This document shows, one piece after another, positions 1 through 49,636 of a stretch of 49,636 nt of DNA (the stretch's first letter is position 1; each line of letters begins with the position of its first letter). Both the position numbers and the translations under genes were made by a program. The stretch lies in IMG/VR virus record IMGVR_UViG_3300033987_000055; one strand, written 5' to 3'. This DNA comes from a virus. Under the pieces are notes generated by a model. It worked only from the letters and a program-made list of their open reading frames with translations, searched no databases and was not told the origin of the DNA.

Positions 1-127
1 AAAATTTACTTCTTTTATTTGCCAAATTACTTTATCATTTTTTATTTCAATAACTTCCCATATAACTCTTATATCAACCCATTCATAGACTATTTGTGTT
101 CCTGCTTCAATAATATCCCTTTCATTC
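1..127. repeat. Terminal direct repeat of the assembly (identical to 49510..49636). It marks a circular or terminally redundant 49,509-bp genome.
   Basis: Read directly: positions 1..127 (aaaatttacttc...cctttcattc) recur exactly at 49510..49636. Confidence 0.95.
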
Positions 128-1855: not shown

Positions 1856-1906
1856 TTTTTATCACCTACTTTTTATTTGGGGTAGGAGCTTTTTAGCTCC
1901 TAACCT

Positions 1907-2833
1907 CTAATCTTCGAATGGAGTTCCTTCAAATTCACTTTCATCAAAATCTATATCTTCATAATCTGCTTCTACTATTTCTTCTTTGGATTCTTCTTGG
2001 TAATTCTGTAAGTATTTAATTAGCCTATCAGCTTCAATAGTTGTTAATTGCTTGCTTGATTCTTTACCAAATTGCTCTTTAATGTACTTTTTCATTTCTT
2101 CATTATCTATGTTTTTCTGTTTTGCAAGTTTATAGATAAAATCTAATTGCCTGTTAGTAGCTAAATTGCTTTGTTCTTCTTTAACTACTTCATCTTTTCC
2201 AATGTCATTTTCAATAACTGTTGCATCTACTTTAATTGGAGTTTCATCAAGCTTACTGTCATCTATAGGCATTTCTTCTGGACTGTATAATCCTCCAAAT
2301 TCTTCAGGTATTGCCTCTCTTAGAGCCTGTACTAAAGCAACTTTTCTAATCATTGTTGCGGGCATCTTCTGCCAATTAGTCATTAGGTCGCCTTTGCTGT
2401 TATATCTTTGATATTCCTCTAGCCCTACTGTTATTTCCATTGGAACATTCCAATCTTTTCTGTATACTCTAGCCCAACCACCTACAAGGGTTTCCTTTGG
2501 AAGCACTAATGCTCCTTTCCTATATTCAACAGTTCCATCTTCTTTTTGGACTATTACTCCTGCTTCATAGCCTGTACATAATTTTGATTTAGCTGCTCTT
2601 TTTACAAATGTATCTTTACCTGTAACCATAGTGGCTGGACTATTGCCAAATTTGATTAGATATGCTTCTCTTAAGAATGGGTTTAGATTTTGGTATTTGC
2701 ACATTTGTATAAACATCATTACTTCTTGGTCTGTTACCTTAGATGAATCTCCAGACACAAGGTATTTCTTTACAATATCTTTAGAAAGTGTAACTTCACC
2801 ATTATCGGTTTCATACTTTACTATATTACTCAC
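1907..2833 (-). CDS. recT: RecT/Bet-family single-strand annealing recombinase
   Basis: 308 aa. N-terminal two thirds (..DQEVMMFIQMCKYQNLNPFLREAYLIKFG..TGKDTFVKRA..) resemble RecT/Bet. Acidic C-terminal tail. Confidence 0.85.
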   Translation of the reverse strand: MSNIVKYETDNGEVTLSKDIVKKYLVSGDSSKVTDQEVMMFIQMCKYQNLNPFLREAYLIKFGNSPATMVTGKDTFVKRAAKSKLCTGYEAGVIVQKEDGTVEYRKGALVLPKETLVGGWARVYRKDWNVPMEITVGLEEYQRYNSKGDLMTNWQKMPATMIRKVALVQALREAIPEEFGGLYSPEEMPIDDSKLDETPIKVDATVIENDIGKDEVVKEEQSNLATNRQLDFIYKLAKQKNIDNEEMKKYIKEQFGKESSKQLTTIEADRLIKYLQNYQEESKEEIVEADYEDIDFDESEFEGTPFED

Positions 2834-3041
2834 TTACTCCACCACCCATATTTTTAATTTCTTGTTCAGTCATACAAGCTCCGCAATAACCGCACTTTGA
2901 AGCATATTTAACGCTATCCCAATTTCCATCAACTAAAATGTAATAATATAAATCAACCCAGCATCTTTTATGAACTCCAAATAATTTATAGTCATACAAG
3001 AATTCAAATATTTTAAACTTTATTTTTTGTTTTAAATTCAT
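2826..3041 (-). CDS. Hypothetical Cys-rich protein (71 aa)
   Basis: ATG preceded by a GGGGGGAG RBS. Several Cys (CGYCGAC). Overlaps the recT start by 8 nt. Confidence 0.4.
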   Translation of the reverse strand: MNLKQKIKFKIFEFLYDYKLFGVHKRCWVDLYYYILVDGNWDSVKYASKCGYCGACMTEQEIKNMGGGVSE

Positions 3042-3052
3042 TTACTCCCCCC

Positions 3053-3223
3053 CTAATCGCAATAAGGAATTGTGAATCTTATTATTATCTCATCTTTAGT
3101 TGTACTTATTAGTTCAGTAGTACACTCTAACCATTCAGCCATTTCTTTTGGTACTGTCTTATATCCAGTTAGTTTTTCTATTTCTTTAATTAGGTCCTCA
3201 TATAGAGGACAGTTATTTGTGAA
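3053..3223 (-). pseudogene. 3' segment of an interrupted ORF: 56 sense codons, no usable start
   Basis: The frame opens right after an in-frame TAG (3226..3224) inside the 40-nt repeat and runs FTNNCPLYEDLIKEIEKL...RFTIPYCD to TAG at 3055..3053. The first Met is codon 28 and has no RBS. An open frame this long is unusual in DNA this AT-rich. Confidence 0.4.
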
Positions 3224-3258
3224 CTACCTCCACCTATAGAGGTGGTGGCTTCGTGGTC
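3219..3258 (-). repeat. 40-nt hairpin repeat, copy 1 (identical to 38053..38092)
   Basis: Minus-strand reading is GACCACGAAGCCACCACCTCTATAGGTGGAGGTAGTTCAC. Stem CCACC/GGTGG extends through CC/GG, followed by a 7-8 nt 3' tail. Confidence 0.9.
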
Positions 3259-3417
3259 AATACTCCAATCGGAGCAAGTTTACCCACGCTCAAAGGGCTG
3301 TTCCATCCCCAGTTTTACCATTCATATGGCTAATTTTAGTAGTTTGGTTTTCACTACTTTTTAGCAACATTCATCACCCACTTATTGAAGTGGGCGACTT
3401 CTGTCGCTGATTAGGTT
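3259..3417 (-). ncRNA. Candidate structured RNA or intervening sequence between the two halves of the split ORF
   Basis: Locally GC-enriched, non-coding. Serial hairpins are visible on the minus strand: GCGAC-agaa-GTCGC, CCCACTT-caat-AAGTGGG, AGTAGT-n9-ACTACT, CGTGG..(CTCC-gatt-GGAG)..CCACG. Confidence 0.3.
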
Positions 3418-3507
3418 AAATACAAAATCTTCTATATGGTCTTTCATTGTGCCTATGCCGCTTTGAATTACTTTTCTTTCAATAAGTTCTGGTTTACCAA
3501 ATTCCAT
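3382..3507 (-). CDS. Small ORF (41 aa as read), possibly the 5' segment of the interrupted ORF
   Basis: ATG 3507..3505 overlaps the upstream stop (TAATG) and follows an AGGAGAGG RBS. Sequence MEFGKPELIERKVIQSGIGTMKDHIEDFVF.. then runs into the structured insert and stops at 3384..3382. Confidence 0.45.
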   Translation of the reverse strand: MEFGKPELIERKVIQSGIGTMKDHIEDFVFNLISDRSRPLQ

Positions 3508-3719
3508 TAACAACCTCTCCTTAATCTTGCCTCTATGAATTCCAATCTTTGTGTCAGATCAATACCATTAATGTGATAATCATTTTTTTCAATTTCTTCT
3601 ATAAGAGATTTCAAATCATCCGCTGTTTTTAAGGCATTTTCCCATTTTTTTCTATCGATTAATAATGATTCAAAATCGCTTAAACTGATGGTAACCAGCC
3701 CTTGAATGTTCACTTTCAT
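3507..3719 (-). CDS. Hypothetical protein (70 aa)
   Basis: ORF track. Translationally coupled to the next ORF. Confidence 0.5.
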   Translation of the reverse strand: MKVNIQGLVTISLSDFESLLIDRKKWENALKTADDLKSLIEEIEKNDYHINGIDLTQRLEFIEARLRRGC

Positions 3720-3737
3720 CCTCCTTTTTGGTATAAT
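3709..3737 (+). promoter_or_regulatory. Plus-strand promoter with extended -10 (TGgTATAAT)
   Basis: ttcact (3709..3714), 17-nt spacer, tg at 3729..3730, tataat at 3732..3737. Antisense to the surrounding minus-strand genes. Confidence 0.5.
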
Positions 3738-3743
3738 ATAGAT

Positions 3744-3790
3744 GAGTATACTTTCTAATTGACCTTTCCAAATTTGGAAGGTCTTTTTTT
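3744..3790 (+). ncRNA. Candidate about 47-nt antisense sRNA (type I antitoxin-like)
   Basis: Lies between the plus-strand promoter and a plus-strand intrinsic terminator (gacctttccaaatttggaaggtc 3761..3783 plus T7 at 3784..3790). Complementary to the last about 12 codons of the 49-aa hydrophobic ORF. Confidence 0.45.
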
Positions 3791-3904
3791 ATGCCTTTCA
3801 TCAATGTAGATATAAATTATCCCTGAAAGAAATACTACAAATGCAAGCCAAAAGAACTTCATCATTTTAAGTAAGGCTAAATAGATGATTGTTAAATCAT
3901 TCAT
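3755..3904 (-). CDS. Small hydrophobic peptide (49 aa), type I toxin-like
   Basis: Not in the ORF track (<60 aa). ATG 3904..3902 follows AAAGGGGGGA. Sequence MNDLTIIYLALLKMMKFFWLAFVVFLSGIIYIYIDERHKKRPSKFGKVN has one TM helix and a basic tail. Confidence 0.5.
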   Translation of the reverse strand: MNDLTIIYLALLKMMKFFWLAFVVFLSGIIYIYIDERHKKRPSKFGKVN

Positions 3905-3930
3905 CTCTCAATCCCCCCTTTGCGAAATAA

Positions 3931-3982
3931 ATAAAAAAGCCAATTGCTATACACGTATAAAAATACGCATATAGCAATTGGC
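3931..3982 (-). terminator. Rho-independent terminator
   Basis: 13-bp stem GCCAATTGCTATA / TATAGCAATTGGC (3939..3982) followed on the minus strand by TTTTTTATTTATTT. Confidence 0.75.
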
Positions 3983-3997
3983 TCTAGCTCTGGCTCA

Positions 3998-4159
3998 CTA
4001 AACAGCTGATGCTGTCGGCTCTGGCTTAGGCTCATTGATTATTTGTACTTCATTTCTGCATTTTTTACATTTTATAAAAACTCCCATTATATGTTGCTTT
4101 GGATCTATTCTTAATAATTTCTGCTTACATATTGGGCATCGATACCAAATAAGTTCCAA
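3998..4159 (-). CDS. Small zinc-ribbon protein (53 aa), Cys-rich KTR-like
   Basis: Not in the ORF track. TTG start 7 nt after a GGGGGG RBS. Sequence LELIWYRCPICKQKLLRIDPKQHIMGVFIKCKKCRNEVQIINEP.. contains CPxC..CxxC. Confidence 0.5.
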   Translation of the reverse strand: MELIWYRCPICKQKLLRIDPKQHIMGVFIKCKKCRNEVQIINEPKPEPTASAV

Positions 4160-4176
4160 AACATTGCCCCCCTTTA

Positions 4177-4371
4177 TTAATTTTCTTTAGTTAATCCTAA
4201 AAACTGTTTAATTTCGTTTATTGTTTTGCCTTCTTCTGCCATTTTTGATACTTCTTTTGTTATTATTTCTGCTACTAAATTTGTATTTCTTTTAATAATT
4301 CTTCTTTTATGCTCAGCAGTGAGAGACTCCCAAGGAACACCTCCCACTGTAATTTTTATGTTCATGGGCAT
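4177..4371 (-). CDS. Hypothetical protein (64 aa)
   Basis: ORF track. The RBS GGGGGA fits the second ATG (4365) better. Confidence 0.5.
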   Translation of the reverse strand: MPMNIKITVGGVPWESLTAEHKRRIIKRNTNLVAEIITKEVSKMAEEGKTINEIKQFLGLTKEN

Positions 4372-4515
4372 TCCCCCTTTTGTTACAATCTATGTTTCTT
4401 AAATTTTGTCCTATGCAACCCCTTTTGTCTAAATTTGCTTATTATTCCATAATTTGAAACTTTATTTAAGAATAATAATATGAAATAATGTATATAGAAA
4501 TCTTTTGAATAATGT

Positions 4516-4527
4516 TGTCTATAGACA
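4516..4527. promoter_or_regulatory. Operator-like perfect palindrome TGTCTATAGACA
   Basis: Same half-site family as three sites in the cro/cI intergenic region. Confidence 0.45.
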
Positions 4528-4746
4528 GCAATTATTTAAAAAAATAAATCTTTTAATATCAATATCATTGTCATTACAAAATTTAATTAATTTTTGAGTG
4601 AATTTAATTCCTGGGTTAGCTTCACCTTTTAGCACTCTAAATACAAAACTATAATCTAACCCTAATTCTTGTGAAAATTTATAAGAAGTCCATCCTTTTT
4701 GGGATAGGTATTCATTAATCGCTTTAATATTAATAAGTTCATTCAT
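4519..4746 (-). CDS. Cro-like XRE-family HTH regulator (first lytic gene)
   Basis: 75 aa. HTH segment WTSYKFSQELGLDYSFVFRVLKG. Divergent from the cI-like gene. Confidence 0.75.
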   Translation of the reverse strand: MNELINIKAINEYLSQKGWTSYKFSQELGLDYSFVFRVLKGEANPGIKFTQKLIKFCNDNDIDIKRFIFLNNCCL

Positions 4747-4774
4747 TGAATCACCTCCATTATGACAAATTGTT

Positions 4775-4884
4775 TGTCTATATACAATATATCATATTTG
4801 CTGTTTATATGCAATACTTTTTTACTATTTTTTTTAAAAAATATTGTTAATAAGCAATAATTACATTAAAATTGTATATAGAAA
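4775..4884. promoter_or_regulatory. Lysis/lysogeny switch region with three operator-like sites
   Basis: TGTCTATATACA (4775..4786), TGTTTATATGCA (4802..4813) and TGTATATAGAAA (4873..4884) lie between divergent HTH genes. Confidence 0.55.
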
Positions 4885-7465: not shown

Positions 7466-7521
7466 TAAAAAAATAGGACTGTCTATAAGTATACCATACG
7501 TGTATACCTATAAACAGTCCC
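7466..7521 (-). terminator. Strong terminator ending the GC-rich moron operon
   Basis: About 19-bp stem GGACTGTtTATAGGTATAC / GTATACtTATAgACAGTCC followed by TATTTTTTT on the minus strand. Confidence 0.8.
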
Positions 7522-7572
7522 TGTGACGGTGAGGAAAAATCCTCGTGTCGTGGGAATTAGAAATCATGGGAG

Positions 7573-8193
7573 CTAGAAAATATCTGACACTTCCCTTTCC
7601 TCCCATGTGGCAGCTAGCAGCTGCCCGTTTCTGTAAACATAGTAATGTGCCGCTGGCTGCCCGTATAATCTGCCACTGTATCCCGTTCTAAAAACTACAT
7701 TTTCTGGCATAATGGCTACTAGCTGTTCACCGCTCCCCATTCTACCAGCATCCCCCTGAGCGATAATGCCGGTAGTGAGAATTTCTCCGGGGAATGGATG
7801 GAACTCAAGTTCACGCCTAAAACCGGCATCTGGAGAATACTTGCTGATGTCTTCGCCGGGGTAACTTGCTTTGAGATACTCCCGGCTATATCTCTGTACC
7901 TCCTCCCAAGTGTATCTCTCTTTTCTGGGCACGCTTTTGGGGAAACTTGCGTACCATTCACGCACCCAGTATTCCTCCTTGCGGTCTCCTGTATGGGAGT
8001 TCCCTCCCCTGAAACCTATCTTTGTCCTGAAGATACAGATACATTTTTCTGTAGTATCTGCATCTTCTGTTTGGAACAACTTTGGCTTTCCTGCCTTAGT
8101 TGTTCCTATCTTGGCAAAATTGATATATGTGTAACCTTTTTCTTGCCATTTCTTGTAATCATTGGGAAGGAGTTGGACTGGGAGCACTCCCAA
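7573..8193 (-). CDS. Hypothetical protein (206 aa), compositionally foreign (about 50% GC by eye)
   Basis: ORF track, TTG start after a purine-rich GGAAGGAAG. I recognise no family. Overlapping plus-strand ORFs are artefacts of the high GC. Confidence 0.55.
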   Translation of the reverse strand: MGVLPVQLLPNDYKKWQEKGYTYINFAKIGTTKAGKPKLFQTEDADTTEKCICIFRTKIGFRGGNSHTGDRKEEYWVREWYASFPKSVPRKERYTWEEVQRYSREYLKASYPGEDISKYSPDAGFRRELEFHPFPGEILTTGIIAQGDAGRMGSGEQLVAIMPENVVFRTGYSGRLYGQPAAHYYVYRNGQLLAATWEEREVSDIF

Positions 8194-8310
8194 CTTCCTT
8201 CCTCTTCCTTCCTCACCTATGATGATTGCAGGGATGGTAATCCCCGCACCTTTTCGTAAAATTTTTCATAAACTGTCATCATTTAAACCCCTCCAATTTT
8301 ATTTTTTATT

Positions 8311-8383
8311 CCTGCCTAGCAGGTTGAGCGGAAAGGGAGAAAACTCCCCTCCTGGGGTTTCACCAGGAACTCCCTAGCCCTGC
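8311..8383 (-). ncRNA. Structured intercistronic element A (two hairpins closed by GCAGG/CCTGC)
   Basis: Plus-strand reading: CCTGC-cta-GCAGGTTGAGCG..GGGAG-aaaa-CTCCC..CCTGG-n7-CCAGG..CCCTAGCCCTGC. Contains the stop codon of the upstream ORF. Confidence 0.6.
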
Positions 8384-8697
8384 TGTACAACTTCAAGTAC
8401 TTTTCTGCATCTCTCTGATGATGGATAGCTTTTTGCTAAATAGTATATTGCATTTTTAATTTTTTGTGGTAGTTCGTTGTAATCTACTTTTTTCACTTCT
8501 ATGACTCTGGAGCTCTCTAAAAATCCAGAGTATAGTGGTCCTGGGTCTAATACTTCGTAAATTGTTCCATCGTCGTCGAGCACGTAATCCCCCTTTTCGA
8601 GAAAAGTAAAGGCAAATTTTAGTGAATCATAATCTGTTTTTCCTGATTTAGGAATAAACTTATAAAACGTACTTGGAAATTTAACATATAGTTTCAT
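8374..8697 (-). CDS. Hypothetical protein (107 aa), ends ..QQG inside element A
   Basis: ORF track. RBS GGAGTGG. Confidence 0.6.
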   Translation of the reverse strand: MKLYVKFPSTFYKFIPKSGKTDYDSLKFAFTFLEKGDYVLDDDGTIYEVLDPGPLYSGFLESSRVIEVKKVDYNELPQKIKNAIYYLAKSYPSSERCRKVLEVVQQG

Positions 8698-8727
8698 TTA
8701 AACCACTCCTTATATAATTATTTTTTC

Positions 8728-8802
8728 CCTGCCTTGCAGGTTGAGCGTTAGGGAGGAGAATCCTCCCCGCTGGAACTTCCCCAGCCTAGAACCTAGCCCT
8801 GC
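8728..8802 (-). ncRNA. Structured intercistronic element B
   Basis: CCTGC-ctt-GCAGGTTGAGCG..GGGAGG-n5-CCTCCC..CTGG-n7-CCAG..CCTAGCCCTGC. Confidence 0.6.
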
Positions 8803-9056
8803 AACTGACGTAAATGCTGAAGAATTTTCTGATACTTTTCCCTTTTGATAACCTCTTTTTGTCGAGTAGCCAATACATACTGTTGACCGTAAGGATAAAA
8901 CTCAATATGAGTTCCGATTCCAATTTGTCGAAGCTCTTGCACTAGTTCCCTTAGATCAGCTTTTGGAATAATCCAACGATTGTATTCTTTAATGGCGCAT
9001 TCCCCAATCAGAAAAAACACAATCATTTGAGAAGCATATTTTTCAATTGTTTTCAT
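8793..9056 (-). CDS. Hypothetical protein (87 aa), ends ..LQG inside element B
   Basis: ORF track. Confidence 0.6.
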   Translation of the reverse strand: MKTIEKYASQMIVFFLIGECAIKEYNRWIIPKADLRELVQELRQIGIGTHIEFYPYGQQYVLATRQKEVIKREKYQKILQHLRQLQG

Positions 9057-9074
9057 TATATTTCCCTCCTTTGA

Positions 9075-9140
9075 GCAGGTTGAGCGGAGCAGGAGAAAAT
9101 CTCCTGACCTCGGCTTTCACGAGGTAGTCCCTAGCCCTGC
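9075..9140 (-). ncRNA. Structured intercistronic element C
   Basis: GCAGGTTGAGCG..CAGGAG-n5-CTCCTG..CCTCG-n7-CGAGG..CCCTAGCCCTGC. Confidence 0.6.
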
Positions 9141-9343
9141 ACATCCTCAATATATACTTCAATGTCTCCATTTTGGAGTATATCAATCATTTCGATTCCC
9201 CCCTTTGCTATATCTTCGCCAAGACTTTTAAGACGTTGTAAACAATCACATACAAATTCATCTGAAATTTGTTCATCAGATAATCCATCACGATAAGTTG
9301 ATGGAATGACTATTTTTTGAAATCCATGTTTTATTTCTCTCAT
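9131..9343 (-). CDS. Hypothetical protein (70 aa), ends ..VQG inside element C
   Basis: ORF track. Confidence 0.6.
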   Translation of the reverse strand: MREIKHGFQKIVIPSTYRDGLSDEQISDEFVCDCLQRLKSLGEDIAKGGIEMIDILQNGDIEVYIEDVQG

Positions 9344-38052: not shown

Positions 38053-38092
38053 GTGAACTACCTCCACCTATAGAGGTGGTGGCTTCGTGGTC
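38053..38092 (-). repeat. 40-nt hairpin repeat, copy 2 (identical to 3219..3258)
   Basis: Read directly. Located in the 202-nt spacer between ORFs 38128..38397 and 37581..37925. Confidence 0.9.
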
Positions 38093-38127
38093 GTTGAATT
38101 ATTAATATATACTCATTATCCAAATTA

Positions 38128-38397
38128 CTACCTCCCTACTACTATCCATATTGGTGGTTTCTTTTTGCCTAATCTAATTTGAAAGAAATCTGGCTTATTA
38201 AGCTCTATAAATAGTTCTGACTTATTCTTTTTAACCCATGAAGTAGAAGGAACTAGCCCTAAATCTTTTAGTATTTTAGGCAAGAATCTTTCATTAGTGT
38301 ATAATGTTTTGTCTTGCCAAGATATATCATTTTCATCTTCTCCAAACAAATGATATAACTCTACTAATGGTTTACCTATTACTATGTTTTCAATCAT
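38128..38397 (-). CDS. Hypothetical protein (89 aa)
   Basis: ORF track. Confidence 0.5.
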   Translation of the reverse strand: MIENIVIGKPLVELYHLFGEDENDISWQDKTLYTNERFLPKILKDLGLVPSTSWVKKNKSELFIELNKPDFFQIRLGKKKPPIWIVVGR

Positions 38398-38698: not shown

Positions 38699-39028
38699 TT
38701 AACTCCTTTCTATAACTAATATAGCAGGATTAGCAACCCCATCGCCCTCATAATTATATTGTTTATTATGCCATTTTCGCAATTCTTCACCGTATTGCCA
38801 ACATTGAGACAGTATAGAAACTACTGCACCATACATAAAACCTGTAATTCCCTCTATATCTGCTTGATGAGATGTTGATTCTGCTATGTCTTCTAATTTA
38901 TACCCTTCTGTAATCTTTTCTTCCATTAGATTAGCCCATCTTTCAGCATATCTAAATACAGCAGAGCCATAAGGGTCAGTATTATTTGCTTTCCAATCTT
39001 CATAAACTTTGATATCTTTAACTTTCAT
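38699..39028 (-). CDS. Hypothetical protein (109 aa)
   Basis: ORF track. RBS GGGAGGAA. Confidence 0.55.
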   Translation of the reverse strand: MKVKDIKVYEDWKANNTDPYGSAVFRYAERWANLMEEKITEGYKLEDIAESTSHQADIEGITGFMYGAVVSILSQCWQYGEELRKWHNKQYNYEGDGVANPAILVIERS

Positions 39029-39262: not shown

Positions 39263-39982
39263 TTAATCCTCATAACAACATTTATCAAATTCAACTTTCT
39301 CTAATAGTCCCATTCCCTGCCCGCATCTTGAACCTAGTCCTGCATTATATGCTAACCTAATCAGATCTCTATCCCCTTCTAAAGCTATTAATCCAACATA
39401 ACCTCTATAAGTATCCTTCTTATATTTGAAATATTCTGGTCTATGAGATAGAATTTTTATTTTCACGTCTCTTGCTGGTAATTTCCCATAAAGTGCATAA
39501 TATTTTTCTATAAGATTTTCTCCTAATTTTACTTCCATTTCTCTGAGTTTCAGCCACTTTCCGTCAATCCTTGTAGCATACACTGGACTAACTGCTTGGA
39601 ATATTTCTGAATTAGTCAATGCAGGCTCTTTTATGTAACTTATGCTGTGTATATTGAAACTATATCCAAATAATTGGATGCTACCTATCTTCATTAACCC
39701 TTGCACAAATTTAATTACAGTCTCCTTTACTGCTGAAGAAAATACCAACGTAGCTATCCCTTTCTTTAAATGAAACTGTGCTATTCGCTTATTTTGACTA
39801 ATGTTATAAACAAAGAAAACATATTTTTTATAGCCTACTTTCTTATAGCCTTCATGCAATTTCGTTGCATATTCTTCATCAACTTCAGCTATAGCTCTAT
39901 AGATAAAAGCTGTCATTGCTTCATTTAAAGGACTATAGAAATCTAAATCTTTGTTTACTATAAAATTCACTTGTACTCTCAT
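39263..39982 (-). CDS. cas6: Cas6-family endoribonuclease
   Basis: 239 aa. Double-ferredoxin-like layout, ..ATKLHEGYKK..FVYNIS.., C-terminal glycine-rich loop AGLGSRCGQGMGLL. Confidence 0.75.
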   Translation of the reverse strand: MRVQVNFIVNKDLDFYSPLNEAMTAFIYRAIAEVDEEYATKLHEGYKKVGYKKYVFFVYNISQNKRIAQFHLKKGIATLVFSSAVKETVIKFVQGLMKIGSIQLFGYSFNIHSISYIKEPALTNSEIFQAVSPVYATRIDGKWLKLREMEVKLGENLIEKYYALYGKLPARDVKIKILSHRPEYFKYKKDTYRGYVGLIALEGDRDLIRLAYNAGLGSRCGQGMGLLEKVEFDKCCYED

Positions 39983-41141
39983 CTACATCCCCCCCTGGCA
40001 CTAAACATAATTCTGTTTCTTTTCTCCAATAAGGAGGTAAAATAGGATGTTGTCTAGCATAAATAGGAATTTGTTTCATCATCATTTCTTCTATTTTCCC
40101 TTTGCATTCCTCTGCTGGGATTGGTCTCATAAGCTTTCCGTCTTTCCATATACTCCAGTCTTCCTCAATTTCTTCAAATTCCCATTTGCCAACTTGACCA
40201 AAGCCCTGACTTCCCTTTTTGCCTAAATAGAAGATGTAATTTTCTAGCAATCTTTTTACTTCTTCCATATCCCCTCTAACATAAAAAGTAATGGTTTTGT
40301 AACTTTGTATTACAACAGGCATGTGGTAGTTTTTATAAAATCCTGCTCCTATATCTACCCTTTCCTTGCCTTTGCCGTTGAATTTTACTATATCATCATT
40401 TTTATCATCCCAGCGTTTACTCCAACTTGTTACGCTTTCTCTATGCTCCCCAATCCCAATACTGGTACAATATACTCCATATTTTCTATCTAGAATTGGA
40501 TCTAACATTGTTCTTATTTGTTCTTCAGTTCCAACTACATTTTTACCTGAATAAAATTCTTCTCCTAATATTTCTTTTGCTTTTGCTGCTGATATAATTG
40601 AATCTAATATAATTGGCTCTATCGTTGCTATTGGAGTTCTCATATGTGCTACTACTTTGAAGTTTTTAAACATATCAATCTCCCCTAATAATAATTTTTT
40701 ACTTTCAGGAAACCTAAGATATTTTTCATCCAGATCGTTAGTCCTGGTTCTGTCTAAAGCATCACAATCTTTAAACACCTTTAATAAATATACAGCAGTG
40801 TCCTTATCTACAATATAATTTTCTACTGCCTTTATTCCATTTCTGTCACTAATACAGTGATTTTCTATTATATACTTTACATATTCGTAATTTGGCATGT
40901 TTAGATGAAGATTATGTTTCTCCAATTTTTTAATACTCTTAAATCCATGCTTAGTGTCTGTTCCATTATGTTCTCGCCCTATATCATGATATAAGGCTGC
41001 ATTATATAATATCTGTCTTTGTACTGGACCTATATCTAACAATGTAGACAGCTTTGTTACATTTGCAAGTACCCTATAAGCATGTTCTGTTCCATGAATG
41101 CCATTTGCATCTTTAAAAAGTTGACCATACTCATTAAACAT
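39933..41141 (-). CDS. csf3: HD-domain phosphohydrolase fused to a Cas5/Csf3-like RAMP
   Basis: N-terminal H..HD..H..D motifs (HGTEHAYRV, LYHDIGREH, ENH, DCDALDR). C-terminal half has VVAHMRTPIATIEPIILDSIISAA and the G-rich loop LGKKGSQGFGQVG. Confidence 0.65.
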   Translation of the reverse strand: MFNEYGQLFKDANGIHGTEHAYRVLANVTKLSTLLDIGPVQRQILYNAALYHDIGREHNGTDTKHGFKSIKKLEKHNLHLNMPNYEYVKYIIENHCISDRNGIKAVENYIVDKDTAVYLLKVFKDCDALDRTRTNDLDEKYLRFPESKKLLLGEIDMFKNFKVVAHMRTPIATIEPIILDSIISAAKAKEILGEEFYSGKNVVGTEEQIRTMLDPILDRKYGVYCTSIGIGEHRESVTSWSKRWDDKNDDIVKFNGKGKERVDIGAGFYKNYHMPVVIQSYKTITFYVRGDMEEVKRLLENYIFYLGKKGSQGFGQVGKWEFEEIEEDWSIWKDGKLMRPIPAEECKGKIEEMMMKQIPIYARQHPILPPYWRKETELCLVPGGDVDESTSEFYSKQRFRFL

Positions 41142-41898
41142 ATTGCTTCACCTCTGGGAAAGCTTCTTCCAATTTTTTGTATAATTCTGGATAATTTAAT
41201 TTTAGAAAAACTGCTGTGCCTTGATGTAATAGATCTGTAGCTGTTACATAACCTAACCTTATCCAAGTGTTCCCGTTGACACATTTTTTAAAGTATATCG
41301 GGTGAATTGGTAAATTATATTTAACAAGTGTTGCTGCTACATCTTCTAACTTGTACCATAAAATTGGGTAGCAAACCTTACAATAAGTTGGTACATTTGT
41401 TTCAAAATTCATCCCATGTGCTCTTGCTGCTTTCATTCTTCTCTTGCTTTCATATGCTCTTACACCTATAAAAGCTAAGTCTTTCTTTTCGGATTCCACA
41501 AAATTTTTAATTGCATCAAAAAAATATCCTCGCTTACCAAACTGAACTTTGCTACCTTTTCCCACTACATCAAAAGCTGATACCGGAGACCAATCTATAA
41601 TAACTTCTCTACCTAGATGCTCTGCTGTTAATTTAATTATGTCTTCTGTGTGAGGGAATGAAGCATCCGACAAGTGTGCCCACATTACAAAATCCCTTCC
41701 CATCTCTTTGGCAACTTCATTAACTAGCCCAGCCATTGCTACACTATCTTTACCACCACTAATTGCTAGGTATGGATTTTTGCATCTTTCAAACGCTTCT
41801 CTAATTGCTTGCTTCGCTCTTTCTTCTTTTTTCTTGAAGGAAGATAGCTGCATAGCTACCTTCCCCATTTTTACTAAATCAATATTTCTAAAGTTCAT
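41134..41898 (-). CDS. PAPS-reductase/CysH-like PP-loop ATPase (type IV-B-associated cysH-like)
   Basis: PP-loop YLAISGGKDSVAM. No C-terminal ECG(L/I)H redox motif is visible. Confidence 0.8.
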   Translation of the reverse strand: MNFRNIDLVKMGKVAMQLSSFKKKEERAKQAIREAFERCKNPYLAISGGKDSVAMAGLVNEVAKEMGRDFVMWAHLSDASFPHTEDIIKLTAEHLGREVIIDWSPVSAFDVVGKGSKVQFGKRGYFFDAIKNFVESEKKDLAFIGVRAYESKRRMKAARAHGMNFETNVPTYCKVCYPILWYKLEDVAATLVKYNLPIHPIYFKKCVNGNTWIRLGYVTATDLLHQGTAVFLKLNYPELYKKLEEAFPEVKQYV

Positions 41899-42734
41899 TA
41901 TTTTAAAACCCCTTCTATTTCTCTAATCCACTGTCTTATCTCTTCTTTATTTTCTTCTAGGTAGTTGTAGTAGGTTTCTTCACTTTCTAGTTCGTCATAC
42001 TGTATATCTACTTGCCCATGCCCTGCTGCTGATTTTCCTCCTATGAATGGTACCTCTTTTAATTTCTTTAGTGTAGCGTTTACCATTGCTTCTTCTACTT
42101 TATTGACGTTCTCGATTACTATAGTTCCTATTAATTCAGTTCCTGCGGATAGACATTGCATTTCATATTTCATTTGCACTGGGTCATCATTTTTCTTTTT
42201 GGCTACTTCCTCTTTGATGTTGTATTCTACAGACTTAAGGTCGTCTTTCCTTGTATAAAATACTTCTTCTAGCATGTCATAGAAGGATATATCGCTTTCT
42301 ATACCTGTATAATCTACTGTTTCCTTGCATATTGGTAGGAATATTGGAGCTTTCATTTTCCCTTGAAGTATTTGGTCCCCTATAGCTGTTCCAAGTAGAG
42401 CTAATGGCGGACACATCTTTCTAATTCTTCTTCTCTCTCCTACTTCTACATATCTAGCTCCGCCGACTAAAGCTCCACCAGTAAATAGAGTATAATATAG
42501 TTTCTCTGAAATTCCTTCTTCAGCAATACCCAATCTTTCAAGATAATCCCTCATAGCTATTCTTCTAAATTGTCCCCTGAATCCATTACCTGAATAAACT
42601 GGTATATCTATGAATTCACCGTTGTATAAGAATTTGTTTGTCCTCATAATCTGCATAGTTCCTAATCTTTCATCTCCAAAGTGGCTTAGTGGGCTTAATA
42701 ATTTCATCCTCACATCAATTTTTATATTATCCAT
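41898..42734 (-). CDS. csf2: Cas7-family RAMP (Csf2-like backbone subunit)
   Basis: IPVYSGNGFRGQFRRIAMRDYL and the C-terminal FIGGKSAAGHGQV glycine-rich loop. Confidence 0.75.
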   Translation of the reverse strand: MDNIKIDVRMKLLSPLSHFGDERLGTMQIMRTNKFLYNGEFIDIPVYSGNGFRGQFRRIAMRDYLERLGIAEEGISEKLYYTLFTGGALVGGARYVEVGERRRIRKMCPPLALLGTAIGDQILQGKMKAPIFLPICKETVDYTGIESDISFYDMLEEVFYTRKDDLKSVEYNIKEEVAKKKNDDPVQMKYEMQCLSAGTELIGTIVIENVNKVEEAMVNATLKKLKEVPFIGGKSAAGHGQVDIQYDELESEETYYNYLEENKEEIRQWIREIEGVLK

Positions 42735-43185
42735 CTATCTTAACCCCTTTCTCTGTAAATTTTACTTGTCTATTCCTTTCTTTTAATTCTCTTTCTCTCA
42801 ATTCTTGTTCTTTTAAGGATTCTTCCATTGCTTTTCTTGCATCTCTGTTTAGTCGAACTTCTAGTACTAACTGCAATGTTTCTTCTCTTATCAGCTTTAG
42901 TACTGCTTGTTTGAATTCCTCTGACTGTTGGCTAACATCTCTAAATATTCTGCTTCTTAAACTTCTGACGTCCATTTTTCTAGCTAGTTTTTCCACAAAG
43001 TTTTCATATGAGTTTGTAGTCATTGCTGCTGCTTTGATTTTGTTTCCAAATTCATCCCAAATGCCGTATGCTCTTCTTGAATCTACCTTGTCCCAGTCTA
43101 TACAGGACCAAATACCGTATATGGTAGATATGGCTACATCTCGTATGTTTTCTTCTGTGAAAGCAATTTCTATACGTCTATCCAT
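42727..43185 (-). CDS. cas11: Cas11-like small helical subunit
   Basis: 152 aa, all-helical by composition, Arg/Glu-rich. The call rests on its position between the csf1-like gene and csf2. Confidence 0.45.
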   Translation of the reverse strand: MDRRIEIAFTEENIRDVAISTIYGIWSCIDWDKVDSRRAYGIWDEFGNKIKAAAMTTNSYENFVEKLARKMDVRSLRSRIFRDVSQQSEEFKQAVLKLIREETLQLVLEVRLNRDARKAMEESLKEQELRERELKERNRQVKFTEKGVKIDG

Positions 43186-43195
43186 TTTATCCCTC

Positions 43196-43975
43196 CTAAA
43201 ATAGTTTTAATTGACCTTCTACTTGACTTTGTTCTTTTTCCTTTTGCTGTTTTTGTGCTTGCTTTTGCTTTTTCTTTTCTTCTTTCTGCTTCTTGATTCT
43301 TTCCTCAACTATTTTGTTTCTTTCCTCGCTGTTTAGTATGTATACTAGTAGATCGAATTGATGTGTACCTCTGTACTGCCTAATTACATCTTCATGTGCT
43401 TTGAATCTTTCTAACCCATATTCTTCTATTCTTGCTATAGAGTATTGCCCAGTCAATATCTCATCCTTTTGAAAATACATATACATATCCCAAATTATGT
43501 CGTATAATACTTTCATGTTTGCTCTATCAAATACGTATTCTTTATCCTCTTCTCTGATTATAAATACATTTGTGTTGTTGTTTACCTTACATCTATAAGA
43601 GTTGTGTTTTTTAAAGCTTCTCGTGATGCCAATTACAAAATCACCTGATACATACTTGTCTATGTTGAATAGATATTCTTCTAAGTCGTTTTTCTTCAGT
43701 AGATATAAGTTGTCTTTGTCTGCTATGATGTTATTTGTTCTTAGTTCCCTTATTTTTACACATGTTGCACATTCCTTGCATATATGAGTACCTTGTATGT
43801 TTGCGAATACGTCATAGTCAGTAAAGTTCCCTGATACTACTTTCTTGTATTTAACGCCTTCTCTGATTTCTTTGCCACACATCATGCATTTTGTTTCTAC
43901 ATCTTCTAGTTCTAGATCTGGAAGCTCTATGTTAGATTTCTTCAATGCACTGTATATGATTTCAGTTGCGTTCAA
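43196..43975 (-). CDS. csf1: Csf1-like (Cas8-like) large subunit with a zinc finger
   Basis: 259 aa. CMMCGKE..(n32)..HICKECATC. TTG start after GGGGGTGA. First gene of the operon. Lys/Glu-rich tail. Confidence 0.5.
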   Translation of the reverse strand: MNATEIIYSALKKSNIELPDLELEDVETKCMMCGKEIREGVKYKKVVSGNFTDYDVFANIQGTHICKECATCVKIRELRTNNIIADKDNLYLLKKNDLEEYLFNIDKYVSGDFVIGITRSFKKHNSYRCKVNNNTNVFIIREEDKEYVFDRANMKVLYDIIWDMYMYFQKDEILTGQYSIARIEEYGLERFKAHEDVIRQYRGTHQFDLLVYILNSEERNKIVEERIKKQKEEKKKQKQAQKQQKEKEQSQVEGQLKLF

Positions 43976-49509: not shown

Positions 49510-49636
49510 AAAATTTACTTCTTTTATTTGCCAAATTACTTTATCATTTTTTATTTCAATAACTTCCCATATAACTCTTATATCAACCCATTCATAGACT
49601 ATTTGTGTTCCTGCTTCAATAATATCCCTTTCATTC
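49510..49636. repeat. Second copy of the terminal direct repeat
   Basis: Identical to 1..127. Confidence 0.95.

What the first reader, a model, noticed from the sequence alone, without database searches (positions are those of the whole stretch)
3053..3507. Early ORF split by a about 190-nt structured, GC-enriched insert that ends in the second copy of the 40-nt repeat
A well-initiated ORF (RBS, TAATG coupling; MEFGKPELIERKVIQSGIGTMKDHIEDFVF..) runs into a non-coding segment full of hairpins (3259..3417). Directly after the 40-nt repeat, a 56-codon open frame with no start codon continues to 3053 (FTNNCPLYEDLIKEIEKL..).

Removing 3224..3417 (194 nt, bounded by U| and G|) would join the two frames in phase and give an 86-aa protein. 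Possibilities are a very small self-splicing intron, a Cas6-processed or otherwise excised RNA, or an insertion that killed the gene.

I could not recognise a group I core by eye, and 194 nt is at or below the usual size limit. The fact that the insert's 3' end is the same 40-mer found next to the Cas operon links the two loci.
Basis: partly seen in the sequence, partly recalled or inferred. Interest (0 to 1): 0.7.

Follow-up and report, generated by a model that had tools for sequence, protein, structure and literature searches.

The report
Guide-RNA mini-transposon splitting a phage gene
The "structured insert" is a 197-base, gene-less miniature IS200/IS605 transposon that carries an intact TnpB guide-RNA (omega RNA) scaffold and has landed in a small early phage gene; it is a known kind of mobile element, not an intron or a CRISPR-related RNA.

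Summary
An uninterrupted allele (85 aa, 99% identical, on a public contig) shows that the insert is exactly window 3415..3219 on the minus strand. It is 197 nt long and sits between ...GTATTTAA and AAATAACTGT..., with no target duplication.

Its ends match those of a 1,690-nt IS200/IS605 element whose layout is LE, tnpA (Y1 transposase), tnpB, omega RNA/RE. That element also always sits after TTTAA.

The last 128 nt (3346..3219) are a complete TnpB omega-RNA scaffold. It scores 140.9 bits with a covariance model built from 72 relatives, the same as copies next to tnpB, and the structure shows strong covariation.

The 40-nt repeat is the conserved right-end terminus of this family. It was found in more than 180 viral and genomic stretches. 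The second copy (38053-38092) is a solitary right-end fragment at a mosaic junction.

The window has no tnpA or tnpB. There is no group I core, and the element ends in C rather than G. Nothing links it specifically to the nearby type IV cas operon.

Most likely it was mobilised in trans by a host TnpA. Its omega RNA plus flanking guide would direct a host TnpB to cut insert-free alleles (TTTAA followed by the guide). It is a new member of a known kind, and of modest interest.

The parts
3416..3507 (-). 5' fragment of the interrupted 85-aa early gene (codons 1-30 plus 2 nt). As it stands, translation reads into the element and stops at 3382, giving a 41-aa product.
   Evidence: It is identical to the uninterrupted allele on L003 up to ...GTATTTAA.
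3416..3420 (-). TTTAA, the target / transposon-adjacent motif (TAM) directly 5' of the left end.
   Evidence: junction; 17 of 23 left ends of this family are preceded by TTTAA.
3219..3415 (-). 197-nt non-autonomous IS200/IS605 mini-element (PATE-like), CCTAATCAGCG...GGTAGTTCAC. No ORF and no target-site duplication.
   Evidence: Absent from the empty-site allele L003. 93-95% identical full-length copies occur at other loci: L049, and L133/L135 in Caloramator sp. mosi_1.
3363..3408 (-). Left-end (LE) imperfect hairpin, the presumed TnpA recognition structure. The first ~49 nt of the element are 94-96% identical to the LE of 1,690-nt tnpA+tnpB elements.
   Evidence: DNA fold z = -4.68. LE blast hits. 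The LE hairpin also weakly matches the RE-hairpin part of model R1 (third hit).
3219..3346 (-). Complete TnpB omega-RNA (reRNA) scaffold, ending at the right-end boundary ...GGTAGTTCAC.
   Evidence: CM R1 gives 140.9 bits, E = 5e-36, over model positions 1-129. tnpB-linked copies score 120-144 bits. Covariation is shown.
3226..3249 (-). Right-end (RE) hairpin, GCC A CCACCT CTAT AGGTGG A GGT. It is the terminal omega-RNA stem and the presumed TnpA RE hairpin.
   Evidence: compensatory C-G to U-A changes among relatives.
3199..3218 (-). Predicted omega-RNA guide, AAATAACTGTCCTCTATATG. This is flanking phage DNA immediately 3' of the RE.
   Evidence: Its position is inferred from the known TnpB omega-RNA architecture. 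The empty allele L003 carries TTTAA followed by this exact sequence.
3053..3218 (-). 3' fragment of the interrupted gene (last nt of codon 31 through TAG). It has no start codon of its own.
38053..38092 (-). Solitary 40-nt RE terminus, identical to 3219-3258. Nothing upstream of it resembles an omega RNA or an LE. It lies in an intergenic mosaic junction.
   Evidence: The CM scores only 39 bits, all from the terminal 40 nt. L067 shares the 82 nt upstream (38089-38170) but lacks the 40-mer there. Similar solitary termini occur in L106 and L169.

Best explanation
The insert (window 3415..3219, minus strand, 197 nt) is a non-autonomous, ORF-less derivative of an IS200/IS605-family insertion sequence. 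This kind of element is called a PATE-like mini-element. It keeps the left-end hairpin region and the whole right end, which is the omega-RNA scaffold of the element's TnpB nuclease.

Shown:
- It inserted scarlessly 3' of TTTAA into an 85-aa early phage gene.
- An otherwise ~99% identical phage sequence has the empty site.
- Its ends match those of a 1,690-nt LE-tnpA(Y1)-tnpB-RE element.
- Its omega-RNA scaffold is as intact as tnpB-linked copies.
- The phage has neither tnpA nor tnpB.

Inferred from the established IS200/IS605 and TnpB mechanism:
- It was mobilised as single-stranded DNA by a Y1 TnpA supplied in trans by the host or another element.
- It is transcribed by read-through on the early-gene strand.
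- The scaffold plus the adjacent ~16-20 nt (AAATAACTGTCCTCTA...) would load into a TnpB supplied in trans. That complex would cut insert-free alleles (TTTAA followed by the same sequence).
- Recombinational repair would then copy the element in (homing), and the occupied allele is immune to cutting.
- The gene is simply disrupted, leaving a 41-aa truncated product, unless TnpA excises the element precisely.

The 40-nt repeat is the conserved RE terminus. The second copy is a solitary RE remnant of unresolved origin.
For: - **Empty site.** Three uninterrupted homologues exist (P0001 at 99% identity, P0002 and P0003 at 61%). The DNA alignment defines the insert to the base and shows no duplication.
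- **Match to tnpB 3' ends.** blastn of the insert hits the 3' end and downstream region of a tnpB in Clostridium phage c-st.
- **Spread of the RE terminus.** The RE-terminus pattern is in 67 viral and at least 120 genomic stretches. In 90 of 193 of these, a TnpB homologue ends 95-130 nt (mostly 106-117 nt) before the RE end.
- **Full-length parent.** L035 5676-7365 encodes Y1_Tnp (E = 6e-46) and OrfB_IS605 / Cas12f1-like TNB / HTH_OrfB. Its TnpB matches the solved ISDra2 TnpB at E = 6e-95.
- **Target motif and size class.** TTTAA precedes 17 of 23 left ends. Fifteen mini-elements of 183-226 nt were found, counting the window's own.
- **RNA structure.** 97% of cells are paired against 80% in shuffles. 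The covariation score is 0.468 against 0.157 in shuffles and <=0.113 in slid controls. Conserved G-U pairs point to RNA on this strand.
- **Intactness.** The window copy scores 140.9 bits; tnpB-linked copies score 120-144 bits.
- **No transposase genes.** tblastn finds no TnpA or TnpB in the window.
- **Literature.** PATE-like elements that encode omega RNAs and need TnpB in trans are described in PMC10055086.
Against: - There are no expression data, so transcription and processing of the omega RNA in this phage are untested.
- No sigma-70-like promoter lies inside the element on that strand.
- The host is unknown, so TnpA and TnpB supply in trans is assumed. Near-identical mini-elements and tnpB copies in Caloramator genomes only suggest it.
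- Rfam has no model that recognises this scaffold, so the omega-RNA label rests on position relative to tnpB, covariation and protein homology to ISDra2 TnpB, not on a curated family.
- The element may be an inert passenger with no effect on phage competition.
Confidence: 0.9

Rival explanations
1. It is a very small self-splicing group I intron, or a miniature IStron, removed from the mRNA so that the 85/86-aa protein is still made.
For: The insert is highly structured. Removing it restores the frame. IS200/IS605-group I chimeras (IStrons) exist in Clostridia and in phage c-st (PMC4227781).
Against: - No Rfam intron match in the window at gathering score or at E<=10 locally, and none in the c-st locus.
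- The true element ends in C and follows A. Group A IStrons end in ...TCAG after a T-rich pentanucleotide, and group I introns need a 3'-terminal G.
- The full-length parent has tnpA about 100 nt after the left end, with no room for a ribozyme.
- Only ~70 nt of the insert lie outside the omega-RNA scaffold.
Confidence: 0.02
2. The 40-mer is a CRISPR-repeat-like Cas6 substrate. It would tie both loci to the phage's type IV cas operon, yielding crRNA-like guides from solitary repeats.
For: - The phage encodes a Cas6 (TIGR01877, 90 bits, above cutoff) inside a type IV-like operon, and the window has no CRISPR array.
- The 40-mer is a hairpin followed by a 7-nt tail and then variable sequence.
- In one other phage contig (L053/L201) a mini-element ends 16 nt upstream of csf1.
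Against: - The same terminus occurs in more than 180 stretches across many taxa, usually right after tnpB and without cas genes.
- Five of 6 homologous type IV operons in viral contigs have no such element within the DNA held. This includes the two closest (88-98% aa identity), though one of them, L199, is a 5.1-kb contig that begins inside csf2.
- Copy 2 lies 1.17 kb from cas6, with tad4 and two small ORFs in between.
- No repeat-spacer arrangement is present.
Confidence: 0.03
3. It is an inert relic: a mini-element that transposed once and now has no activity, with neither mobilisation nor RNA guidance. The only effect is loss of a dispensable gene.
For: No tnpA or tnpB in the phage. No internal promoter. 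The interrupted gene has no known domain. Solitary RE fragments show that the family decays in phage genomes.
Against: - Both ends and all conserved scaffold positions are intact, and the CM score equals that of tnpB-linked copies.
- The flanks are ~99% identical to an empty allele, so the insertion is recent.
- Near-identical copies at other loci indicate an actively spreading family.
Confidence: 0.3

Closest known systems
PATE-like (palindrome-associated transposable element) non-autonomous IS200/IS605 elements encoding omega RNAs, e.g. in Geobacillus stearothermophilus (Meers et al. 2023, PMC10055086)
   Same: ORF-less. Keeps the LE and RE hairpins of a tnpA/tnpB element. Carries an omega RNA that needs TnpB in trans. 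Inserts scarlessly next to a TAM.
   Different: It belongs to a different sequence family, with TAM TTTAA and an RE ending GGTAGTTCAC. It sits inside a phage early gene. In my sample, tnpB-less copies were commoner in viral contigs (29 of 46) than in genomes (13 of 50).
ISDra2 (Deinococcus radiodurans) IS200/IS605 element and its TnpB-omega RNA complex (PDB 8bf8, 8exa, 8h1j)
   Same: The family's TnpB is clearly homologous (E = 6e-95). The layout is the same: tnpA(Y1)-tnpB-omega RNA overlapping the tnpB 3' end and the RE, with the guide taken from flanking DNA.
   Different: The TAM here is TTTAA, whereas ISDra2 uses TTGAT (for TTGAT-type elements). The window copy has lost both genes.
IStrons (CdISt1 and relatives): group I intron + IS200/IS605 or IS607 chimeras
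   Same: An IS200/IS605-type element inserted in a coding sequence of a Clostridia-type genome or phage, with an omega RNA at the 3' end.
   Different: IStrons carry a ~400-nt ribozyme at the 5' end and end in G, so they splice out. This element has no ribozyme and ends in C.
Mobile group I introns and homing endonucleases in phage genes (e.g. T4 td, nrdB)
   Same: Analogous outcome: an occupied allele is protected, an empty allele is cut, and it is converted by recombination during co-infection.
   Different: Here the nuclease would be RNA-guided and supplied in trans. The host gene is not rescued by splicing.

Membership tests
IS200/IS605-family non-autonomous (PATE-like) element | Inserts 3' of a specific tetra- or pentanucleotide without target-site duplication | tested here: met
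   Occupied versus empty allele...TTTAA|[197 nt]|AAATAAC.... TTTAA precedes 17 of 23 family left ends.
IS200/IS605-family non-autonomous (PATE-like) element | Subterminal imperfect hairpins at both ends, with no terminal inverted repeats | tested here: met
   LE hairpin 3408-3363 (z = -4.68) and RE hairpin 3249-3226. The LE hairpin resembles the RE hairpin (third hit).
IS200/IS605-family non-autonomous (PATE-like) element | Ends homologous to those of an element encoding a Y1 (HUH) TnpA | tested here: met
   LE is 94-96% and RE 83-93% identical to 1,690-nt elements. L035 encodes Y1_Tnp at E = 6e-46 and TnpB.
IS200/IS605-family non-autonomous (PATE-like) element | No transposase gene of its own | tested here: met
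   197 nt with no ORF. No TnpA or TnpB anywhere in the window.
IS200/IS605-family non-autonomous (PATE-like) element | TnpA-dependent excision and integration | not testable with these tools
   Indirect evidence only: presence/absence polymorphism and near-identical copies at unrelated loci.
TnpB omega RNA (reRNA) | Lies at and downstream of the tnpB 3' end and stops exactly at the RE boundary | tested here: met
   In relatives, TnpB ends 95-130 nt (mostly 106-117 nt) before ...GGTAGTTCAC. All aligned copies end there.
TnpB omega RNA (reRNA) | Conserved secondary structure supported by covariation | tested here: met
   21 pairs, 10 with compensatory changes. Covariation 0.468 against 0.157 in shuffles (0 of 500 reach it) and <=0.113 in slid controls.
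TnpB omega RNA (reRNA) | The 3' guide is the flanking DNA, and the empty site carries the TAM followed by the guide-matching target | tested here: met
   L003 carries TTTAA followed by AAATAACTGTCCTCTATATG.
TnpB omega RNA (reRNA) | The RNA is expressed, bound by TnpB, and directs DNA cleavage | not testable with these tools
   No RNA-seq or biochemistry is available, and no curated Rfam family matched.
Group I intron / IStron | Catalytic core (P3-P8) recognisable by covariance model | tested here: not met
   No Rfam match at gathering score or at E<=10 over 2900-3700, and none in the c-st tnpB locus.
Group I intron / IStron | The upstream exon ends in U and the intron ends in G at the true boundaries | tested here: not met
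   The true boundaries are ...TTTAA| and ...GTTCAC|.
CRISPR repeat / Cas6 substrate | Repeats arranged in an array with spacers | tested here: not met
   Only two copies, 34.8 kb apart. No short-range repeats were found.
CRISPR repeat / Cas6 substrate | Consistent co-occurrence with the cas operon | tested here: not met
   1 of 6 homologous type IV operons has an element nearby. Most copies sit next to tnpB.

The most novel reading that the evidence does not exclude
Guide-only mini-elements of this family may be phage-adapted 'hitch-hiker gene drives'. By carrying just an omega RNA plus flank, a phage would borrow the host cell's TnpB to cut sibling or competing phages that lack the insert. 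These rivals would then be converted or excluded during co-infection, possibly helped by the phage's own RecT two genes downstream. The higher share of tnpB-less copies in viral contigs (29 of 46) than in cellular genomes (13 of 50; Fisher p = 4e-4, from non-independent samples) would then reflect selection, not just packaging limits and decay.
Probability: 0.2. Interest if true: 0.6.

Novelty: new member of a known kind. Interest (0 to 1): 0.3.

Why it matters
The finding turns an apparent "tiny intron / Cas6 RNA" puzzle into a cleanly defined natural pair of alleles for a TnpB-type element in a phage: one occupied and one empty. The TAM, guide and target are all readable from the sequence.

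That pair is a ready-made test system for two questions. Can omega-RNA-only mini-elements work with TnpB supplied in trans? Does this cause homing or exclusion between phages? The work also yields a 72-sequence alignment and covariance model for an omega-RNA family that Rfam does not detect.

As biology it is not surprising. PATE-like elements with omega RNAs and the TnpB homing mechanism are already described.

Tried and rejected
- **Rfam.** I scanned the whole window at gathering score, 2900-3700 at E<=10, and the RM378 and c-st loci at E<=1. Nothing relevant came up, only two chance sRNA hits on the other strand.
- **Near relatives in GenBank phages.** Megablast of 1900-4800 gave no match. 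The empty allele was found through protein search instead.
- **IStron idea.** The ~500 nt upstream of tnpB in relatives turned out to be tnpA (Y1), not a ribozyme.
- **Literature search for the scaffold sequence** (GGTAGTTCAC, GACCACGAAGCC). It returned only unrelated primer hits.
- **Secondary targets.** I searched the window for secondary targets of either 'guide'. None has a TAM.
- **Origin of the solitary 40-mer (copy 2).**
  - L067 shares the upstream flank without the 40-mer, and L192 shares only the downstream terminator region. The 40-mer therefore marks a mosaic junction.
  - I could not decide between a deletion remnant, abortive homing or gene conversion, and aberrant TnpA activity.
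  - The covariance-model alignment upstream of copy 2 is noise, because the same sequence occurs in L067 with no RE.
- **Association with the type IV cas operon.** I tested this with six homologous operons and rejected it.

Full report
**Setting.** The window is a complete, circularly permuted genome: bases 1-127 repeat at 49510-49636. It is low in GC (32.6%) and looks like a temperate tailed phage. It encodes a serine integrase, an HTH repressor, RecT, replication proteins and TerL. Most genes are on the minus strand. The finding lies in the early-gene block, two genes upstream of recT.

**Checking the observation.**
- On the minus strand, an ORF starts at ATG 3507. It overlaps the preceding stop (TAATG) and follows AAGGAGAGG.
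- After 30 sense codons it runs into foreign sequence and stops at 3382.
- A start-less frame continues from 3223 to TAG at 3055-3053.
- The intervening segment is GC-rich: 44.7% against 30.5% in the flanks.
- It folds far better than shuffled sequence: -73.5 kcal/mol, z = -5.85.
- The exact 40-mer repeat is at 3219-3258 and 38053-38092, in the same orientation.
- So the description is accurate. Only the boundaries needed correcting.

**The empty site.**
- I searched with a joined protein and found three uninterrupted homologues. P0001 is 85 aa and 99% identical. P0002 and P0003 are 86 and 87 aa and 61% identical.
- P0001 lies on a 987-nt public contig (L003). P0002 lies on an 8.3-kb phage contig (L004), in the same early-gene context, next to an ERF recombinase.
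- The DNA alignment of L003 with the window is ~99% identical on both sides. The window has one clean extra block of 197 nt, 3415..3219...GTATTTAA|CCTAATCAGCG...GGTAGTTCAC|AAATAACTGT....
- There is no duplication and no ambiguity.
- Removing this block gives ...FVF-K-NNCP..., exactly as in P0001.

**What the insert is.**
- A sensitive blastn of the region against GenBank phages hit only window 3217-3345. One match was the 3' end and downstream region of a TnpB-type 'transposase' (CST045) in Clostridium phage c-st. The other was an intergenic stretch in Rhodothermus phage RM378.
- In an alignment, all copies, including the second 40-mer, stop being similar at exactly ...GGTAGTTCAC.
The genomes include Clostridia, Tissierellales, Caloramator, Paenibacillus and others.
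- In 90 of 193 occurrences, a homologue of the c-st TnpB ends 95-130 nt upstream of that terminus, mostly 106-117 nt.
- The first ~49 nt of the window insert are 94-96% identical to sequence lying 1,690 nt upstream of the terminus in several loci.
- One such full-length element is L035 5676-7365. It reads TTTAA|LE, then a 137-aa Y1 transposase (Pfam Y1_Tnp, E = 6e-46), then a 356-aa TnpB (OrfB_IS605, Cas12f1-like TNB, HTH_OrfB_IS605), then 106 nt of non-coding RE.
- That TnpB matches the solved ISDra2 TnpB at E = 6e-95.
- Seventeen of 23 recognisable left ends follow TTTAA. Most of the others are one-base variants or offsets of that motif, such as ATTAA. Fifteen elements, counting the window's own, are only 183-226 nt long.
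- Several are 93-95% identical to the window's over their full length. These include two in the Caloramator sp. mosi_1 chromosome.
- The insert is therefore an internally deleted, ORF-less member of an IS200/IS605 family. This kind of element is called PATE-like.

**The omega RNA.**
- I aligned the last 130 nt of 72 diverse copies (A3).
- RNAalifold predicts four helices with 21 pairs, 10 of which show compensatory changes.
- One example is a long-range CGUGG/CCACG helix whose middle pair is G-C in 44 sequences, U-A in 21 and C-G in 7.
- Another is a hairpin where 47 of 72 sequences differ on both sides of a pair yet stay paired.
- With controls, 97.0% of cells are paired against 80.3% in column shuffles. 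The covariation score is 0.468 against 0.157 (0 of 500 shuffles reach it) and <=0.113 when partners are slid by 1-3 columns.
- Invariant G-U pairs argue for RNA structure on this strand, beyond the DNA hairpins that TnpA uses.
- A covariance model built from A3 (R1) scores window 3346..3219 at 140.9 bits (E = 5e-36) across the whole model. tnpB-linked copies score 120-144 bits.
- The empty-allele loci L003 and L004 give no hit.
- Position, structure and the ISDra2-like TnpB together identify this as the family's omega-RNA scaffold. Rfam has no model that detects it.

**How it most likely works.**
- Shown here:
  - The insertion is scarless and follows TTTAA.
  - The LE and RE are intact.
  - The scaffold is intact.
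  - The window has no tnpA or tnpB (tblastn, nothing better than E = 0.46).
  - The element has no internal sigma-70-like promoter on its strand.
  - A Y1 TnpA supplied in trans moved the element as single-stranded DNA.
  - Read-through transcription of the early operon would produce scaffold plus guide (AAATAACTGTCCTCTATATG).
  - A TnpB supplied in trans would then cut alleles carrying TTTAA followed by that sequence. This is exactly what L003 carries.
  - The occupied allele lacks the TAM next to the target and so is immune.
  - Repair from an occupied genome would copy the element in.
- The same paper notes that PATE elements 'often encode omega RNAs' that need TnpB from other IS copies, so the category is already known.
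- For the phage, the direct consequence is a truncated 41-aa product of a small gene of unknown function (no Pfam match). The change is reversible only by precise TnpA excision.

**Why it is not an intron.**
- No group I or group II model matches.
- The real boundaries are A| and C|, whereas group I introns need a 3'-terminal G. IS200/IS605-type IStrons end in ...TCAG (PMC4227781).
- The parent element has tnpA where an IStron would have its ribozyme.
- Only ~70 nt of the insert lie outside the omega-RNA scaffold.

**Why the Cas link fails.**
- The neighbouring operon is real and interesting (see notes): Csf1, Cas11, Csf2, a cysH-like PAPS reductase, an HD-Csf3 fusion and a Cas6. The window has no CRISPR array.
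- However, the 40-mer is the RE terminus of a transposon family found in more than 180 places without cas genes.
- Among six viral contigs with homologous type IV operons, only one has a model R1 hit nearby. That is L201 (the same contig as L053), where a 226-nt mini-element ends 16 nt before csf1.
- The two closest relatives (88-98% aa identity) have none within the DNA held, although L199 is only a 5.1-kb contig that starts inside csf2.

**The second 40-mer.**
- Model R1 scores 38170..38053 at only 39 bits, and all of that comes from the last 40 nt.
- The 82 nt upstream are shared (93%) with contig L067, where they are not followed by the 40-mer.
- L192 shares only the downstream terminator region.
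- Copy 2 is therefore a solitary RE terminus at a mosaic junction.
- Comparable solitary termini exist in L106 and L169.
- Its origin is unresolved. It could be a deletion remnant, abortive gene conversion after TnpB cutting, or aberrant TnpA activity.

**Distribution.** I counted RE termini with at least 1.4 kb of upstream sequence available. Of these, 29 of 46 in viral contigs lack any TnpB, against 13 of 50 in genomes (Fisher p = 4e-4). The samples are not independent, and the search pattern was chosen from phage copies, so this is only a lead.

**Verdict.** This is a well-supported, ordinary explanation: a new member of a known kind, namely a PATE-like IS200/IS605 mini-element with a TnpB omega RNA. 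The natural occupied/empty allele pair in a phage is a convenient system for testing trans-acting TnpB homing, but nothing here contradicts current understanding.

Noticed in passing
window 39263-43975 (minus strand): Phage-borne type IV CRISPR-Cas-like operon: Csf1/Cas8 (PADLOC E = 2e-36), Cas11 (3e-22), Csf2/Cas7 (1e-64), a cysH-like PAPS reductase (Pfam 3.5e-13; the type IV-B accessory gene, from my own knowledge), an HD domain fused to Csf3/Cas5 (3e-46) and a Cas6b-like Cas6 (4e-38). The window has no CRISPR array. An HD-Cas5 fusion and a Cas6 in a cysH-type operon seem unusual. The closest relative, L200, has no cas6 match after HD-csf3.
   Followed up: partly
window 38699-39028 (minus strand): Homologue of the Thoeris inhibitor Tad4 (Pfam PF25186, E = 4e-41), directly downstream of cas6.
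   Followed up: no
L053 5359-5584 (= L201 4666-4793 for the scaffold): In another phage contig, a 226-nt mini-element of the same family sits directly upstream of the homologous type IV operon, on the same strand. Its RE ends 16 nt before the csf1 start, so the 'guide' covers the csf1 RBS. It may be coincidence, or the element may supply a promoter or regulation.
   Followed up: partly
L001 1568-1695 (Rhodothermus phage RM378, NC_004735 128212-128330): A full omega-RNA scaffold (128.6 bits, 81% identical to the window's) lies directly after an RNA polymerase sigma factor gene. It has no tnpB and is followed ~25 nt later by a terminator-like hairpin. A 28-codon 'hypothetical protein' (Rm378p143) is annotated over it. 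This is striking conservation in a phage of a distant host phylum.
   Followed up: partly
window 3188-3208 versus 3222-3242: The exon just downstream of the insertion site carries a palindrome (CCTCTATATGAGG) that resembles the RE hairpin (CCTCTATAGGTGGAGG), with 76% identity over 21 nt. It may be chance, or a hint that hairpin-like targets are favoured.
   Followed up: no
window 7500-9200: A GC-rich block with diverged direct repeats: 40-nt units at 8304, 8721 and 9060, and 44-nt units at 8340 and 9097. The ORFs (7573-8193, 8374-8697) have no Pfam match. The block is partly conserved in phage contig L004. I found no explanation.
   Followed up: no
L192 ~1820-2495: In a related phage contig, ~690 nt lie between the shared terminator and the orf114 homologue. 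They appear to encode an HNH/AP2-like homing-endonuclease-type ORF (judged by eye from the translation only). This shows that the copy-2 intergenic region is a hotspot for mobile DNA.
   Followed up: no
window 1-127 and 49510-49636: An exact 127-nt terminal redundancy, consistent with a circular or circularly permuted complete genome assembly.
   Followed up: no
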